A stretch of 64,000 bases of DNA from Eledone cirrhosa (lineage: Eukaryota): NCBI GenBank assembly GCA_964016885.1, contig OZ024745.1:94488001-94552000 (forward strand), written 5' to 3'. The position numbers and the translations under genes were made by a program. The notes under the pieces were generated by a model that was given only the letters and a program-made list of their open reading frames with translations, did not search any database and was not told the DNA's origin. Positions 950-63,143 of this stretch are shown here, piece after piece; position 1 is the first letter of the stretch, and each line of letters opens with the position of its first letter.

Positions 950-1015
<66 letters not shown>

Positions 1016-1147
1016 AGATAAATCTACCAAGAGTTTACGGTAGTGTCCAATCCGTATGAAGAACTCAATGTAATCCGGATATCATGGAAAGAAGAGATGC
1101 AACGAAAAATCACTTTCGGTGAAAGATAAACGGAATACAGAGTCAAG

Positions 1148-1565
1148 ATAAAATATAAAAAAAATAATGAATAAAACAATGAAACAGTTCCTTATATTAA
1201 ACAAAAAAAGTTCATTATTTAACGATCGTTTCTAGGATATATATGTGTTAGAAATGGCATGCATATTCAACAGATCTATGTACAAAATTATACAAAATTA
1301 TACAAACTATCAAAATTAAATATACATACCAAACACATATATATGCCGTCTTCAGAAATATTATTTCTGAAGACGGCATATATATGTGTTTGGTATGTAT
1401 ATTTAATTTTGATAGTTTGTATAATTTTGTATAATTTTGTACATAGATCTGTTGAATATGCATGCCATTTCTAACACATATATATCCTAGAAACGATCGT
1501 TAAATAATGAACTTTTTTTGTTTAATATAAGGAACTGTTTCATTGTTTTATTCATTATTTTTTTA

Positions 1566-1574
<9 letters not shown>
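1148..1574. repeat. Near-perfect palindrome of about 427 bp centred on 1361
   Basis: Arms 1148-1360 and 1362-1574 are reverse complements. This explains the mirror ORFs 1248..1463(-) and 1259..1474(+). Confidence 0.97.
1360..1508 (+). ncRNA. Type I hammerhead with a very long stem II, family F3; mirror copy on - at 1214-1362
   Basis: attattt-CTGAAGA-[ggcatatatatgtgtt...aacacatatatatcc]-GAAA-cgatcg-TT-aaataat. Confidence 0.72.
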
Positions 1575-1634
<60 letters not shown>

Positions 1635-1652
1635 ATATATATATATATATAT

Positions 1653-1691
<39 letters not shown>

Positions 1692-1722
1692 TATATATAT
1701 ATATAGTAATATATATATATAT

Positions 1723-2146
1723 GTGCTGCTGTATGGGTCTGAGACTTGGACACTGACCAAGAGACTCACTCAGATAGTGGATGGGTGCTACACGAGAATG
1801 CTGAGGATGGCTCTGAACATTAATCAGTATACACTGAGGATGAAAAACTCAGAGCTGTATGGGAGCATCCCAAAAGTCAGCTCAAAAGTGACACAGAGGA
1901 GACTGAGGTTGGCTGGACATGCTCACCGACATCCAGAGTTGACATTGCACTCGGTGCTCCTTTGGGAGCCCCTACATGGACACACTAGAAGAGGAAGACC
2001 AAGGTTAACGTATGTTGATGCCCTAAGGACAGACACTGGTCTGTTGGAGATGCAGGATATGGCAGCGATAATGAGGGACAGAGACCGCTGGAGAGAACTC
2101 GTCCATGGATCTCGGGAATTTTACCCGCCTTAGATAGATAGATATA
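1723..2146 (+). mobile_element. RTE-type LINE, 3' fragment
   Basis: LLYGSETWTL...RRLRLAGH...[11 protein letters not shown]...DRDRWR followed by a (TAGA)n tail. Second copy at 63287-64000(-). Confidence 0.9.
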
Positions 2147-2734
2147 TAGTAATTATAAATGTGAAGAATAAAATCAAAGAGTTTTAGATCCCATAAAATG
2201 GTGAAAGCATCGATTCTTTGCTTAAACTTTAATCTGTACATATAATAAATAAATAAATAAATAAATAAATATAATATTCATAGATACACAAACATTTTGA
2301 AATATTTTTATGTACGTTTTGTAGCTAATTCCTCTGCACATGCACTTGAATACTACTATACGTCTGTATATGGTTTTACGAAATGTACTTTGGTGCATGT
2401 ACACGACTATGCCTTCATGAGAACCAATATTGCTATTTGTATGATCGCTAGATTTCCCGTGTTACTCTCACAACCTAGCTATTGGAATTTTAGTTTGCCA
2501 GATGTGAAGGCTTACGTATTTACATTTATATTGACACTGAATCCTTTTTATCAGTTTCATAAGCTTCTTTAAATACTTATATCGATTATTCCAATGTTGC
2601 TGTGACTATGAATATGTAACATGTTCTTACTCACTTCCTATACTTTTAATTAACCATATATGAATATATATTATTATATCAGCTTAAGATAATTTTAGAT
2701 ATATCTCAATGATTTCTAATTTATCCACAAGATC

Positions 2735-23818: not shown

Positions 23819-24160
23819 GGCGCATGGCTTAGTGGTTAGAGCATTGGGCTTGCAATCGAAAGGTTGCGAGTTCAATTCTCGGACCGGGTAATGTGTTGTT
23901 TCCTTGAGCAAGACACTTTATTTCACGTTGCTCCAGTTTACTCAGCTGTAGAAATGACTTGCGACGTCACTGGTGTCAAGCTGTATCGGCCGTTGCCTTT
24001 CCCTTGGACCTCATCGGTGGCGTGGAGAGAGGAGACTGGTATGCATGGGCGACTATTGGTCTTCCACAAACAACCTCGCCTGGTCTTGTGCCTTGGAGGA
24101 AAACTTTCTAGGTGCAAATCCCATGGTCATTCGTGACCGAAGGGGGTCTTTACCCTTTTA
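23819..24160 (+). mobile_element. tRNA-derived SINE, family S2
   Basis: A box tggcttagtggttag, B box gagttcaattc, conserved-domain-like ccttgagcaagacactt, then (TA)n. Confidence 0.88.
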
Positions 24161-27852: not shown

Positions 27853-30800
27853 CACCAAGAACAAAGCCCGCAAGCTACACTCACTCCTCCCAACCACCCC
27901 TATCCACCACCACCCGCCCATCCCCACACGCCCACCACTCTCCACCTCTCCCTCGACCCACACCCCTACCAAATCTCCCCCCTAACCCCCGCCAAACACC
28001 CAAACCCCACCACTTGTTGTCACCATACCCCCTGACCTCCCCCTCTCCGCACCTGAGCGCTCACTCCTTAGTAGAGGCCTTCGCTTCATACCCCACACTC
28101 CGCACAGCGACGAGTTCCGCACCCGAACGGAAGTCGAGCGATTCGTGCGACGCACTAAGCTACAGGCACATTTCGGCCGAACGCCACCGGCTCCGGACGC
28201 CCCAGACCCGTTTCTCGCCCTGGGCCGACGACCATCTTCTTGGACGCCGGCCCCAGGGCAATTTAGCACCCTGGACGCCTTCGTCGATGCCAGACGTAGC
28301 GCAGTAAATCGTTTCGACTTCCGCCACCGTTCCAAACGGTGCAATATTTCACGGGGCGAACTACTCGCTCTCCGCTCCCTCCGTAGCCGAGATGACATCG
28401 TCATCAAACCGGCGGACAAGGGAGGCGCCGTAGTGGTGTGGTGCGCGGACCTCTACACGGCCGAAGCCCTCAGGCAGCTCTGTAACCCCCTCTTCTACCG
28501 CCTCTACCCTCCGATCCCACCCCCCTCTACCAACAACAAGTCTCCTCCACCATCAAAGACCTTATCGCCTCCTCCCTCCTCCCCCACCGCTTCCCACCTC
28601 ATCGTCCGCACCCCCCGCACCCCCACCATCTACTTACTCCCCAAACTCCACAAACCCGACAACCCCGGCCGCCCCATCGTCTCCGCTTGCAACTGCCCCA
28701 CCGAACTCATCTCCGCCTTTCTCGACTCCATCCTCGCCCCCCTTGTCACCACCCTCCCCTCCCACATCTCCGACACCAACCACGCCCTGCGCCTTTTCGA
28801 CTCCTTCACCTATCCACCCGGCTCACAGCCCTTCCTCTTCACCCTAGACATCAAGTCCCTCTATACCGTCATCCCCCACGCCGACGGCCTACGCGCCCTC
28901 AAACACTACCTCGACCTTCGCCCCTCCCCCATTCCCTCCACCCCCACCCTCCTTCGCCTCGCCGAGCTGGTCCTCACCCTCAATTGTTTCTCATTCTCGG
29001 GTGAGTTTTACCAACAGGTCACGGGGGTAGCCATGGGTACAAGAATGGTCCCGAACTATGCCAACCTTTTTGTTGGCCATGTTGAGGCCCAAATTTTTGC
29101 CCAGTACACCGGCCCCACGCCCGAACTGTACGGTCGTTACATTGACGACTGTATCGGAGCCACGACCCTCACCCGAGAACAGCTCGACTCCTTTCTCTCC
29201 TTCTTCTGCTCCTTCCACCCCTCCCTCCACTTCACCACCTCTATCTCCACCACCCACGTCCACTTCTTAGACATCTCCGTCGCCTTCGACCCCTCCCACC
29301 ACTCCCTCGTCACCTCCGCCTTCTTCAAACCCACCGACTCCCACTCTTATCTCGACTTCACATCTTCCAACCCCACCTACACTAAACACTCCATTCCCTA
29401 CTCCCAACTTCTCAGGATCCGCCGCCTCTGTAGCCGAGATGCTGACTTCGAGTCCCAGGCCCTTTCCCTAGTCAGCCATTTCATCCGCAGAGGTTACCCC
29501 CCCTCTCTCGTCCACACCGCTCTCACCCGCGCCCGTGCTGTCCACCGCTCCACCACCCTCACCCCACGCCACCGCACACCCACCCACCGTCTCCCCTTCC
29601 CCATCACCTACCACCCTCCACCTTACCCCTCCACCGCACCATCCGCCGCCTCTTCCGACGCCTCCAGTCCGACCCTCCACCTCCCACATCTTCCCAACCC
29701 CACCACTCCCCTCCTTCAAACGCGCACGCAATCTCCGCACCCTCCTCGTCCACAGCTCCCTACCCCCCAACCCACGCTCTGTTTCCCCCCGGTTCCTTTC
29801 CCTGTTCTAGGCCCCGCTGCAACACCTGTCCCCACATCACCAACACCACCACCTTCCAGGGTCCCAACGGCCACTCTCTCTCTGTCCGGCATGCCTTCCG
29901 CTGCACCTCCTCCAACCTAGTCTACGGACTTATGTCGGACAGACGGGACGTCGCCTGGCGGACCGATTCACTGAGCACCTCCGGAATATTCGTCTCGGTG
30001 GTAGTTCCCCCATCGCCCGCCACTTTGGTGGCCCTGGATATTCCGCACGCCATCTCACAGTCTGTGGCCTACTCCAATGCCACGGAACACCCGCCAATCG
30101 CCTTAGAGTCGAACAAAGAACTATCTTCATCTTACAGACCCACACTCCCCCCGGCCTGAACTCCCCACCCTTATTCCTTTAGCCTTCGACCGCCCCCCTC
30201 CCCCCACACTTATCCCCCACTAACACCACTAACACACCCCTCCTTTTCACCGCCCACCCCACAACTAACAATACTAACACCTCCACTCCAAGCCTCATCC
30301 GACCACCCTTCCCCAACTAACATACTAACATCCCTCCCTTCTTCTCCTCCTCCCCCTCCTTATCACACGCACACACCCACCGGCACATATATACACGCGC
30401 TCACACTAAACACACACCCTACTACCACCACTAACCCTCACCCCCACACCTCTCACCCCCACACCTCCATCCCACCACCCCGCAACTAACCTCACTAACA
30501 CCCCGTGACCCCAAGCACACGAACACACTCACCCACTTACACCACCCACCCCACACGCAACTAACATCACTAACACCCCCAACCCCACGCACACGTACCC
30601 ACACACCCTCGTACACCACCAACTCTACACACCCTACCACCACTAACCCCCACTCACACCTGCATTCAACCCTTCCCCACCTCCCGTATACTAACACCCA
30701 CTAACACCCCTTCATCAAACTAAACACACACCAGTACACCACACTCCCTCCATAGAACTACACACACCCTTCTCTCCCCGCTCCACCCACATCCTCGCTC

Positions 30801-63072: not shown

Positions 63073-63143
63073 TGCATCGACCGAGAACCCAACCCGGGTC
63101 GCCCGCGTCGCAGGCGATCATTCTACGACTGAATCATCGATGC
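63073..63143 (-). pseudogene. tRNA-Gly(GCC)-derived pseudogene
   Basis: GCATCGATGATTCAGTCGTAGAATGATCGCCTGCGACGCGGGCGACCCGGGTTGGGTTCTCGGTCGATGCA has a tRNA-Gly body, but the anticodon reads GCG and the T-loop/B box is damaged. Confidence 0.85.

What the first reader, a model, noticed from the sequence alone, without database searches (positions are those of the whole stretch)
1148..1574. A 427-bp near-perfect palindrome whose axis lies in stem I of a hammerhead
Seen: the symmetry centre (1361) is 6 nt upstream of CTGAAGA, so both strands encode the same ribozyme. Inference: this is a fold-back product of PLE reverse transcription that is keyed to the ribozyme. A transcript would have to choose between a 210-bp duplex (a Dicer or ADAR substrate) and the HHR fold.
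Basis: partly seen in the sequence, partly recalled or inferred. Interest (0 to 1): 0.75.

Follow-up and report, generated by a model that had tools for sequence, protein, structure and literature searches.

The report
Inverted Penelope-element ends, no hammerhead
The 427-base palindrome is real and is one of at least 408 near-identical copies built from two inverted 3'-end pieces of a Penelope-like retrotransposon sitting in (TA)n repeats; it was likely made when both cut DNA strands primed copying of one short RNA, and no hammerhead ribozyme is detectable in it.

Summary
The palindrome exists as described. Its arms are 1148-1360 and 1362-1574, 212 of 213 positions are complementary, the centre is T1361, and CTGAAGA lies 6 nt away. 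It is not a one-off. The own genome holds 408 loci with the same centre, 5755 exact hits to an arm 32-mer and 2818 to a 32-mer of the adjacent 128-nt "head".

In 4-12 kb relatives the same arms are inverted repeats of 255-2646 nt. They flank an ORF with reverse-transcriptase motifs followed by a Cys-rich and GIY-YIG motif, which is the Penelope-like element (PLE) architecture. Published PLE traits match: 5'-truncated copies with an adjacent inverted copy, an optional "tail" at one end, and (TA)n targets.

The hammerhead part does not. Rfam gives no hit, and no helix II or GAAA box follows CTGAAGA.

Both arms carry the same subfamily variants in 48 of 52 short copies and 8 of 8 long ones. The central loop varies within subfamilies. 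Thirty-nine of 40 unselected short copies are simple palindromes with exactly one head.

I infer that two cDNAs were primed from both target strands on one short RNA whose 5' end is at the axis. This is a new member of a known kind, of moderate interest.

The parts
955..1013 (.). Left (TA)n microsatellite flank, ending in TGTG
   Evidence: Sequence. All 20 copies aligned have a (TA)n run directly before GTAGAT. Where unique DNA follows, the run is about 20-22 nt.
1014..1147 (-). 'Head': the extreme 3' terminal about 134 nt of the left PLE copy (sense strand is the minus strand). It begins with the small hairpin GTAGAT-AA-ATCTAC. It is present on one side only and behaves like the optional PLE 'tail'.
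   Evidence: 128-nt query 1020-1147 is 95-100% identical in other copies. An exact 32-mer has 2818 genome hits. It is present once in all 40 unselected short copies, and at one end in 5 and at both ends in 3 of 8 long elements.
1148..1360 (-). Left arm: 213 nt of PLE 3'-terminal region, continuous with the head
   Evidence: An arm 32-mer has 5755 genome hits. In long elements the arm runs on inward into 'ext' and then into the 3' UTR and ORF.
1361..1361 (.). Axis or junction (loop TATTA within GAAA..TTTC): the point where the two copies meet at their 5'-truncated ends
   Evidence: Loop sequence differs among copies that share one arm haplotype. 1353 arm ends read through this point into the long form.
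1362..1574 (+). Right arm: second, inverted copy of the same 213 nt, without head. It ends directly in (TA)n.
   Evidence: The rare variant at 1468 mirrors the one at 1254. The outer boundary is the same in the 20 unselected copies listed.
1575..1722 (.). Right (TA)n microsatellite flank (imperfect)
   Evidence: Sequence. Run lengths on this side are given.

Best explanation
The palindrome is two copies of the last ~220 nt of a Penelope-like retrotransposon (PLE) joined head to head inside a (TA)n microsatellite, and it was likely made in a single insertion event in which both cleaved target strands primed reverse transcription of the same short RNA whose 5' end lies at the axis.

Shown directly:
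- The arms are the terminal part of inverted repeats that flank an RT plus GIY-YIG ORF in 4-12 kb relatives.
- The short form occurs at 408 or more loci.
- Both arms of a copy carry the same subfamily variants.
- The central loop varies.
- Exactly one 128-nt 'head' is attached.
- Single-arm forms (head+arm, or arm alone) end at the same point.

Inferred:
- One cDNA starts at the outer initiation site and yields head+arm. The other starts at an inner site at the head/arm border and yields the arm only.
- Both run to the 5' end of a ~350-nt RNA and are joined there with a few untemplated or slipped bases.
- No ribozyme is involved.
- What creates the discrete 5' end is unknown. In the parent's sense strand an AATAAA lies 7-10 nt upstream of it and a GU-rich stretch lies downstream, so cleavage at a poly(A)-like site is one untested possibility.
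For: PLE origin:
- Eight long elements (L081-L088) have the same arms as inverted repeats of 483, 707, about 255, 1546, 1370, 2646, 1911 and 1713 nt.
- L083:1084-2976 encodes 630 aa with FLQFDIDNYY, GSSDSAQ, YRDD and SNHP motifs, then CNCx6CPx5C and IVYKC..SYIGAT.
- 415 homologues have E<=1e-3. An alignment with 5 of them has 90 invariant columns, including YRDD, the Cys motif and Y[IV]G, and shows that P0002 lacks about 210 N-terminal residues.

Size of the family:
- The short-palindrome centre occurs at 408 loci, control 0.
- A head 32-mer has 2818 hits and an arm 32-mer 5755.

One template for both arms:
- The 14-site haplotype is identical in both arms in 48 of 52 short copies and 8 of 8 long elements.
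- Shared interior variants are symmetric, for example 8 of 8, 8 of 8, 22 of 23, 6 of 6 and 5 of 5 carriers.
- The window's own rare bases at 1254 and 1468 are mirror positions. Nearly all other reads and contigs differ there, for example 135 of 137 and 685 of 700 reads in run X21 (contig depths).

Junction made afresh:
- Loops differ within a haplotype, with 11 or more loop types in the window's group.

Tail rule:
- 39 of 40 unselected loci are simple palindromes with exactly one head. The 40th (L035) is rearranged, with three arm pieces and one head. None has 0 or 2 heads.

Predicted single products exist:
- 19 head+arm and 12 arm-only forms were seen among the 88 fetched loci, spread over most haplotypes.

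Discrete end:
- 29 single forms end at the axis. Only 8 and 3 end at the richer TA microhomology sites.

Literature:
- PLE insertions are 5'-truncated, often with an adjacent inverted 5'-truncated copy and a tail at one end. (TA)n is a preferred target, and the Cys linker has been proposed to mediate this (PMC8557442, passages).
- A purified PLE protein cleaves and extends both target strands and initiates at two internal RNA sites, with the tail lying between them. Hammerhead cleavage was not needed (PMC11167929, main text).
Against: - Pfam gives no hit for the ORF, even at E<=10. It gives only sub-threshold GIY-YIG hits in 2 of 5 homologues, E 0.012 and 0.025. PLE membership therefore rests on motifs and architecture, not on a curated model.
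- Canonical hammerheads are reported as universal in C-terminal-EN PLEs (PMC8557442), yet none was found here.
- The head is 128 nt, whereas published tails are 30-40 bp.
- Three of 8 long elements have heads at both ends, so the one-head rule is not general.
- Two outer-end sites (alignment columns 10 and 13) show recurrent asymmetry between the arms: 9 proximal-only, 2 distal-only and 0 symmetric at column 13. A single template does not explain this by itself.
- Four of 52 short copies differ between arms at diagnostic sites.
- No RNA data were available, so the short RNA and its 5' end are unobserved.
- The sample of 88 loci was drawn by several criteria. Only 40 loci are unselected with respect to the head.
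Confidence: 0.65

Rival explanations
1. Self-propagating hairpin unit. A palindromic master (head-arm-loop-arm') is transcribed as a whole and copied in a single pass from the inner initiation site. The arms are kept alike by arm-to-arm gene conversion, and the centre varies because palindrome centres are fragile in situ. Half forms arise by centre breaks repaired on the flanking (TA)n.
For: - Exactly one head in all 40 unselected copies is what inheritance of a fixed unit predicts.
- Asymmetric singleton variants in the arms are rarer (27 in 19552 sites) than singletons in the head (20 in 6016 sites). Ten singletons are symmetric, which hints at some conversion.
- Both half forms are the two products expected from a centre break joined to either (TA)n flank.
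- Two recurrent asymmetric outer-end sites exist.
Against: - Long elements with arms 4-6 kb apart show the same arm symmetry, 8 of 8. Hairpin-driven conversion is less likely there, and the literature ascribes that inverted copy to the insertion event.
- Every shared interior variant is symmetric. That would need conversion to be much faster than amplification.
- Short, half and long forms share haplotypes, which suggests repeated fresh origin.
- The head has CpGs and the arms are AT-rich, so the density comparison is confounded.
Confidence: 0.15
2. Snap-back of a single cDNA. One target strand primes, the RT reaches the RNA 5' end, and the cDNA folds back and copies itself to give the second arm.
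For: It gives symmetric arms and a variable loop.
Against: - A self-copied strand would also copy the head if the first strand had one, or leave none if it had none. Instead exactly one head is seen in 40 of 40.
- In long elements the two inverted copies have unequal lengths, which snap-back does not give.
- Both-strand priming is shown in vitro for a PLE (PMC11167929).
Confidence: 0.1
3. One reading: a hammerhead ribozyme at the axis cleaves the PLE RNA, which fixes the 5' end and hence the symmetry centre.
For: - CUGAAGA fits CUGANGA and lies 6 nt from the axis.
- The breakpoint is indeed fixed across copies.
- CUGAAGA-type minimal hammerhead-like motifs do occur elsewhere in this genome, for example at L013:2772 and L053:830.
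Against: - No Rfam hammerhead at E<=10.
- No helix II or GAAA after the box.
- In a hammerhead the cut lies 3' of the GAAA and helix III, not 6 nt 5' of CUGANGA.
- Hammerhead cleavage was dispensable for PLE insertion in vitro (PMC11167929).
Confidence: 0.04
4. A DNA transposon derivative: a MITE or foldback element, or a TA-microsatellite-targeting element like plant SaTar/Micron/MuTAnT, or a Helitron/Helentron derivative.
For: - (TA)n flanks on both sides and no visible target-site duplication, as in SaTar elements (PMC5907723, passages).
- The arms are inverted repeats of a longer element.
Against: - The internal ORF is RT plus GIY-YIG, not a transposase.
- The inverted copy has variable length.
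- The head lies outside the palindrome on one side only, so the ends are not inverted repeats.
- There is no 5' TC or 3' CTRR and no 12-15 bp subterminal inverted repeats (features taken from PMC4067079).
Confidence: 0.03
5. An assembly or library artefact, such as a chimeric fold-back read.
For: Perfect palindromes can arise from long-read library chimeras (my own knowledge).
Against: - 408 loci have different unique flanks and different loops.
- Short-read unitigs of two other organisms' runs contain the loop and stop 14 nt past the axis, as expected for k=31 graphs at a palindrome (X4 record 12, X5 record 21).
Confidence: 0.01

Closest known systems
Complex Penelope-like element insertions: a 5'-truncated copy with an adjacent inverted 5'-truncated copy, an optional tail, and microsatellite targets (Craig et al. 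2021, PMC8557442, passages read)
   Same: - Inverted repeats formed by two copies of the 3' part.
- Variable truncation in long copies.
- An extension at one end.
- (TA)n flanks and no discernible target-site duplication.
- RT followed by a Cys-rich linker and GIY-YIG.
   Different: - Here more than 400 insertions share one truncation point in both copies, giving near-perfect 427-bp palindromes.
- The extension is 128 nt, not 30-40 bp.
- No hammerhead was found, although the endonuclease is C-terminal.
In vitro mechanism of the Anolis Poseidon PLE (Frangieh et al. 2024, PMC11167929, main text read)
   Same: Both target strands are cleaved and extended. There are two internal initiation sites whose spacing equals the genomic tail. 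Targets are AT-rich. The hammerhead is not required.
   Different: That is a different clade and host. No head-to-head products were described in what I read. The use of one RNA for two cDNAs is my inference.
Paired minimal hammerheads 100-700 bp apart on opposite strands in metazoan genomes (Cervera and de la Pena 2014, PMC4209133, passages read)
   Same: Short inverted pairs of PLE terminal repeats scattered through a genome.
   Different: Those are defined by a hammerhead in each arm. These arms have none.
Non-LTR retrozymes as non-autonomous PLE derivatives (Li et al. 2026 preprint, doi 10.64898/2026.07.22.740005, abstract read)
   Same: Short non-coding derivatives of the PLE terminal region that have been amplified to high copy number.
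   Different: Retrozymes are tandem and direct, carry hammerheads, and are proposed to use circular RNA. These are inverted dimers without a ribozyme.
L1 twin priming inversions (recalled, not read here)
   Same: Two cDNAs primed from the two sides of one target and joined internally.
   Different: Twin priming gives an inverted 5' segment next to a direct 3' segment of one RNA with scattered breakpoints. It does not give a palindrome of the same segment.
SaTar, Micron and MuTAnT TA-microsatellite-targeting DNA elements of plants (PMC5907723 passages; PMC4486113 listing only)
   Same: 250-800 bp repeats bounded by TA microsatellites, often without a target-site duplication, and arrays of different families sharing microsatellites.
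   Different: Those have terminal inverted repeats and Mutator-type partners. This family has an RT/GIY-YIG parent.

Membership tests
Hammerhead ribozyme | Conserved core: CUGANGA box plus GAAA box plus cleavage triplet | tested here: not met
   Only CUGAAGA is present (1367-1373, and mirrored on the minus strand starting at 1355). No GAAA box lies in register. The nearest candidate is GAAU after 80 nt.
Hammerhead ribozyme | Helices I-III around the core (helix II closing directly after the first box) | tested here: not met
   The strict descriptor gives 0 sites. The relaxed one gives a 4-bp helix with two G.U pairs closing a 72-nt loop. The same relaxed descriptor finds compact canonical-looking motifs elsewhere, e.g. 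L053:95, L079:1044, L011:2245 and L066:2918, which serve as positive controls.
Hammerhead ribozyme | Match to a curated covariance model | tested here: not met
   No hammerhead family at gathering score in the window, none at E<=10 in 800-2000, and none at E<=1 in the window. For the long elements only the best 150 of 416 matches were visible. None of those was a hammerhead, and the rest were unseen.
Penelope-like element (insertion structure) | Parent encodes a reverse transcriptase joined to a GIY-YIG endonuclease in one ORF | tested here: met
   P0002 has the motifs FDIDNYY, GSSDSAQ and YRDD, then CNCx6CPx5C and VYKC..SYIGAT..H..H. They are conserved in an alignment with 5 homologues. Caveat: there is no Pfam hit for P0002, and GIY-YIG is only sub-threshold in 2 of 5 homologues.
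Penelope-like element (insertion structure) | 5'-truncated copies with an adjacent inverted 5'-truncated copy forming inverted repeats | tested here: met
   8 of 8 long elements, with inverted copies of 255-2646 nt. The upstream junction differs (L083 at arm+47 nt joins RT motif 1; L081 at arm+271 nt joins the EN region) while the downstream side is contiguous.
Penelope-like element (insertion structure) | [quoted passage not shown] | tested here: inconclusive
   A 128-nt head is present at one end in 40 of 40 unselected short copies, and at one end in 5 and both ends in 3 of 8 long ones. It behaves like the tail but is about 3-4 times longer than the 30-40 bp described.
Penelope-like element (insertion structure) | Microsatellite / AT-rich target bias | tested here: met
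   All classified copies are flanked by (TA)n on both sides. Runs bordered by unique DNA are mostly 14-30 nt.
Penelope-like element (insertion structure) | Hammerhead motif in the terminal repeat (reported as universal in C-terminal-EN clades) | tested here: not met
   None in head, arm or ext, or anywhere in L081-L088, by the strict descriptor. Only the weak arm candidate appears with the relaxed one.
Penelope-like element (insertion structure) | Placement of the RT within the PLE/telomerase RT clade by phylogeny | not tested
MITE / foldback DNA transposon | Terminal inverted repeats at both ends plus a target-site duplication | tested here: not met
   The left end is GTAGATAAATCTACC... and the right end is ...AATATTTTAT. 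They share no similarity. The head is on one side only, and no duplication is seen beyond TA repeats.
Helitron / Helentron derivative | 5' TC and 3' CTRR with a 3' hairpin, or 12-15 bp subterminal inverted repeats with a T-rich target | tested here: not met
   Ends read. Feature list taken from PMC4067079. A small terminal hairpin exists, but there is no CTRR, TC or subterminal inverted repeat.

The most novel reading that the evidence does not exclude
The 400-plus mini-palindromes are a genomic record of how Penelope-like elements integrate. One short RNA serves as template for two cDNAs, primed from the two cut strands at the two different internal initiation sites, which is why there is always exactly one head. 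That RNA is the fragment downstream of cleavage at the element's own poly(A)-like site (AATAAA 7-10 nt upstream of the axis). The arms are therefore born identical and the junction marks the RNA's 5' end.
Probability: 0.25. Interest if true: 0.65.

Novelty: new member of a known kind. Interest (0 to 1): 0.4.

Why it matters
How PLEs integrate is still poorly understood. Both-strand priming and internal initiation have so far been shown only in vitro, for one lizard element.

This family offers hundreds of young, simple insertions in which the two arms, the junction and the tail can be read directly. It could therefore test whether the two strands use one template and two start sites.

Practically, more than 400 near-perfect 427-bp AT-rich palindromes matter in three ways:
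- They are potential sites of hairpin or cruciform formation and breakage.
- They are potential sources of long double-stranded RNA if transcribed.
- They are a known hazard for short-read assembly.

The result also shows that a CUGANGA word beside a PLE repeat is not enough to call a hammerhead.

Tried and rejected
- **Rfam on the long elements.** The list was swamped by TA/TG-repeat miRNA models. Only 150 of 416 rows were visible, so it settles nothing. I replaced it with my own descriptors.
- **Pfam on the parent ORF.** No family was found.
- **Earlier notes of this scan.** Nothing was on record.
- **The look-up of sequencing runs.** No RNA holder was listed, so expression, small RNAs and editing could not be examined.
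- **Raw RAD reads of three runs.** They cover both arms. 152-207 reads per run leave the window's sequence at 1360 and continue as the long form. The tables do not single out reads that bridge the axis by 31 nt or more, and reads within one arm fit both arms. I therefore count this as no test of the junction.
- **Unitigs.** They reach only 14 nt past the axis, so they do not count as bridging under the tool's 31-letter rule.
- **Simple (TA) microhomology as the reason for the fixed breakpoint.** Rejected, because the richer TA sites have fewer truncations (8 and 3) than the axis (29).
- **A TATA-like CATATATATG 23-26 nt before the axis as a promoter for the opposite arm.** The spacing is on the short side and nothing tests it. 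I keep it only as an idea.
- **Terminal inverted repeats, target-site duplications and Helitron ends.** I looked for these and found none.
- **Head versus arm singleton densities as a test for gene conversion.** Confounded by base composition.
- **The window's own RT ORF at 28145-29917.** It is only distantly related to the parent (24% identity over 165 residues). No other piece of the parent lies in the window.

Full report
**The observation.** The stretch 1148-1574 is a palindrome. Its arms are 1148-1360 and 1362-1574 around T1361, and 212 of 213 positions are complementary, with the single mismatch at 1157. CTGAAGA starts at 1367, 6 nt from the centre. As RNA it would fold into one hairpin of -315.8 kcal/mol, and none of 100 shuffles comes near that. 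It lies between two (TA)n tracts. A 134-nt unique "head" (1014-1147) separates it from the left tract.

**No hammerhead.**
- Rfam gives no hammerhead at gathering score in the window, none at E<=10 in 800-2000 and none among the 61 matches at E<=1 in the window. The matches over the centre are generic miRNA-hairpin models below threshold.
- A strict descriptor of my own (CUGANGA, helix II of 3 bp or more, GAA) finds nothing in the element or in eight long relatives.
- A relaxed descriptor (one bulged base, helix II of 4 bp or more) finds only CUGAAGA-c-GGCA[72 nt]UGUU-GAAU in each arm. The same descriptor picks up compact canonical-looking motifs in unrelated flanks, such as L053:95, L079:1044, L011:2245 and L066:2918.
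- The word CUGAAGA is there. The ribozyme is not.

**A repeat family.**
- Searching the own genome (3.0 Gb) with 1020-1361 gave 453 candidates. The 40 that were scored are 97-100% identical over the full length.
- The centre pattern, allowing loops of 0-30 nt, occurs at 408 loci, with 0 for the reversed control.
- A head 32-mer has 2818 exact hits and an arm 32-mer 5755.
- In 40 loci taken in list order (L021-L040, L061-L080), 39 are simple copies of the form (TA)n-head-arm-loop-arm'-(TA)n with exactly one head. One (L035) is rearranged. None has two heads or none.
- Minority forms end at the same point and run straight into (TA)n. These are head+arm (19 seen) and arm alone (12 seen) among the 88 fetched loci. 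The exact pattern for such ends has 29 genome hits.

**What the arms are.**
- Many arm pairs lie 4-12 kb apart, always with their outer ends facing outward.
- Eight such elements were fetched. Their arms continue inward past the short form's axis (GAAATAATG|AAATATATTTATTG...) as inverted repeats of about 255 to 2646 nt.
- 1353 arm ends in the genome read through in this way.
- Between the arms lies a conserved interior. In L083 it contains a 630-codon open frame with reverse-transcriptase motifs (FDIDNYY, GSSDSAQ, YRDD, SNHP), a low-complexity linker, CNCx6CPx5C, and a GIY-YIG-like VYKC..SYIGAT..H..H.
- 415 proteins match at E<=1e-3. The one carrying a source name is a hypothetical protein of a cephalopod.
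- An alignment with five homologues conserves these motifs and shows that the L083 frame lacks about 210 N-terminal residues.
- Pfam does not recognise the protein. It gives only sub-threshold GIY-YIG hits in two homologues.
- RT followed by a Cys-rich linker and GIY-YIG is the architecture of canonical Penelope-like elements (PMC8557442, passages).
- The upstream inverted copy stops at different points: arm+47 nt joined to RT motif 1 in L083, and arm+271 nt joined to the endonuclease region in L081. The downstream side is contiguous from the ORF through a long 3' region into ext, arm and, in some elements, head. The arms plus head are therefore the element's 3' terminus.

**Fit to published PLE behaviour.**
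- Craig et al. (PMC8557442, passages) describe frequent 5' truncation, an inverted 5'-truncated copy adjacent to the main copy that forms inverted repeats, a 30-40 bp tail at one end, (TA)n as preferred target, and the Cys linker as the proposed mediator of that bias.
- Frangieh et al. (PMC11167929, main text) show that a purified PLE protein cleaves and extends both target strands. Reverse transcription starts at two internal RNA sites whose spacing corresponds to the tail, and hammerhead cleavage is not needed.
- Cervera and de la Pena (PMC4209133, passages) noted paired PLE motifs 100-700 bp apart on opposite strands.

**Evidence on how the short palindromes arise.**
- At 14 subfamily-diagnostic sites the two arms of a copy have the same haplotype in 48 of 52 short copies. 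L005, L042 and L065 differ at 1-2 sites, and L057 has a 75%-identical second arm.
- The same holds in 8 of 8 long elements.
- After I dropped five copies with indel-rich alignments (L020, L026, L036, L057, L063), shared interior variants are symmetric in nearly all carriers, for example 8 of 8, 8 of 8, 22 of 23, 6 of 6 and 5 of 5. Two outer-end columns show recurrent asymmetry. Among singletons, 10 are symmetric and 27 are not.
- Over all 52 copies there are 107 symmetric, 51 proximal-only and 128 distal-only differences. The five dropped copies supply most of the last group.
- The window's own copy shows the point directly. Its rare A1254 and T1468 are mirror positions, while almost all reads and contigs of the family carry the other base.
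- In contrast, the loop differs among copies of one haplotype, and the half forms occur in most haplotypes.
- Truncation at the axis (29) is more frequent than at the two better TA microhomology sites (8 and 3).

**Best reading.**
- *Shown:* two inverted 3'-terminal PLE segments, born alike, joined at a fixed point inside (TA)n.
- *Inferred:* both target strands primed cDNA synthesis on one short RNA of about 350 nt whose 5' end is the axis. One cDNA started at the outer site (head+arm) and the other at the head/arm border (arm only). The two ends were joined with a few extra bases.
- *What this accounts for:* the symmetry, the variable loop, the one-head rule, and the two single-product forms.
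- *Unknown:* what makes the discrete 5' end. In the parent's sense strand an AATAAA lies 7-10 nt upstream and a GU-rich run follows (read as the reverse complement), so a poly(A)-type cleavage is a possibility I could not test.

**Rivals.** A self-copying hairpin unit with arm-to-arm gene conversion remains possible. It is supported by the one-head rule and by fewer asymmetric singletons in the arms than singletons in the head. It does not explain the equal symmetry of arms 4-6 kb apart. Single-cDNA snap-back fails on the one-head rule and on the unequal arms of long elements. A DNA-transposon origin fails on the ORF and the ends. An assembly artefact is excluded by 408 loci with distinct flanks and loops. 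It is also excluded by unitigs from two other organisms' runs that contain the loop and stop 14 nt beyond the axis, as k=31 graphs do at a palindrome.

**Limits.**
- No RNA run was available.
- The raw RAD reads do not isolate axis-bridging reads.
- Only the first 100 places per pattern are listed, so genome-wide distributions are extrapolated from samples.
- PLE membership rests on motifs and architecture without a phylogeny.
- Supplementary files of the cited papers were not consulted.

**Verdict.** The palindrome is real, ordinary in kind (a PLE insertion structure) and unusual in degree (hundreds of near-perfect mini-dimers with one tail). The PLE inference is right and the hammerhead inference is wrong.

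Noticed in passing
window 1723-2148 (+): Directly after the right (TA)n tract lies the C-terminal part of a LINE-type RT ORF (VLLYGSETWTLTK...RDRDRWRELV, then a stop). It is 5'-truncated at the microsatellite. A 98% identical piece with the same start lies in L009:200-626. There is no Pfam hit for this fragment.
   Followed up: partly
window 28145-29920 (+): A 591-aa ORF with a weak RVT_1 hit. The protein atlas places it with DUF8422/HTH_animal/RVT_1 clusters, the same Pfam labels that homologues of the palindrome's parent carry. It is only 24% identical to the parent RT over 165 residues, so it is another, distant PLE-like family.
   Followed up: partly
window 13596 (+) and 34718 (-): My relaxed hammerhead descriptor finds CTGATGA...GAAA candidates here, with helix II of 4-5 bp. 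Rfam reports no hammerhead in the window at E<=1, so they are unverified.
   Followed up: no
L053:95, L079:1044, L011:2245, L066:2918, L013:2772, L053:830, L055:556, L064:2162: Compact hammerhead-like motifs (CUGAUGA/CUGAAGA/CUGACGA, 5-6 bp helix II, GAAA) recur in unrelated repeats near other copies. This genome seems to hold hammerhead-bearing repeat families distinct from the one studied.
   Followed up: no
L005, L041, L052; L008 and L041; L015 and L042; L007 and L008 (flanks): Other repeat families abut the same (TA)n tracts at fixed end points in several loci. (TA)n microsatellites appear to be shared landing sites for several mobile families, as described for plant SaTar arrays.
   Followed up: partly
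L057:1014-1198: One short palindrome has a second arm only 75% identical to the first. It is either a chimera with an older related family or a heavily decayed arm.
   Followed up: no
window 1151 to 1560 (joint in reads): 14-27 raw reads per RAD run join 1151 to 1560 with TA between them. This is a variant that lacks almost the whole palindrome. Short-read contigs also show several symmetric-looking central deletions, for example 1199 to 1510.
   Followed up: no
L081:3266-4620 and equivalents in L082-L088: The parent element's long 3' region holds a degenerate TA/TG microsatellite-like array of about 1.4 kb that is conserved in position among copies.
   Followed up: no
window 63073-63143 (-) and 23825-23882 (+): One tRNA gene (42.7 bits) and one partial tRNA-like match (31.2 bits, model positions 8-63).
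   Followed up: no
arm alignment columns 10 and 13 (window 1157/1565 region): Two sites in the outermost 15 nt of the arms differ between the head-side arm and the headless arm, recurrently and across subfamilies (column 13: 9 proximal-only, 2 distal-only, 0 symmetric). The window's single arm mismatch (1157) is one of them. It may reflect imprecise initiation at the inner start site.
   Followed up: partly
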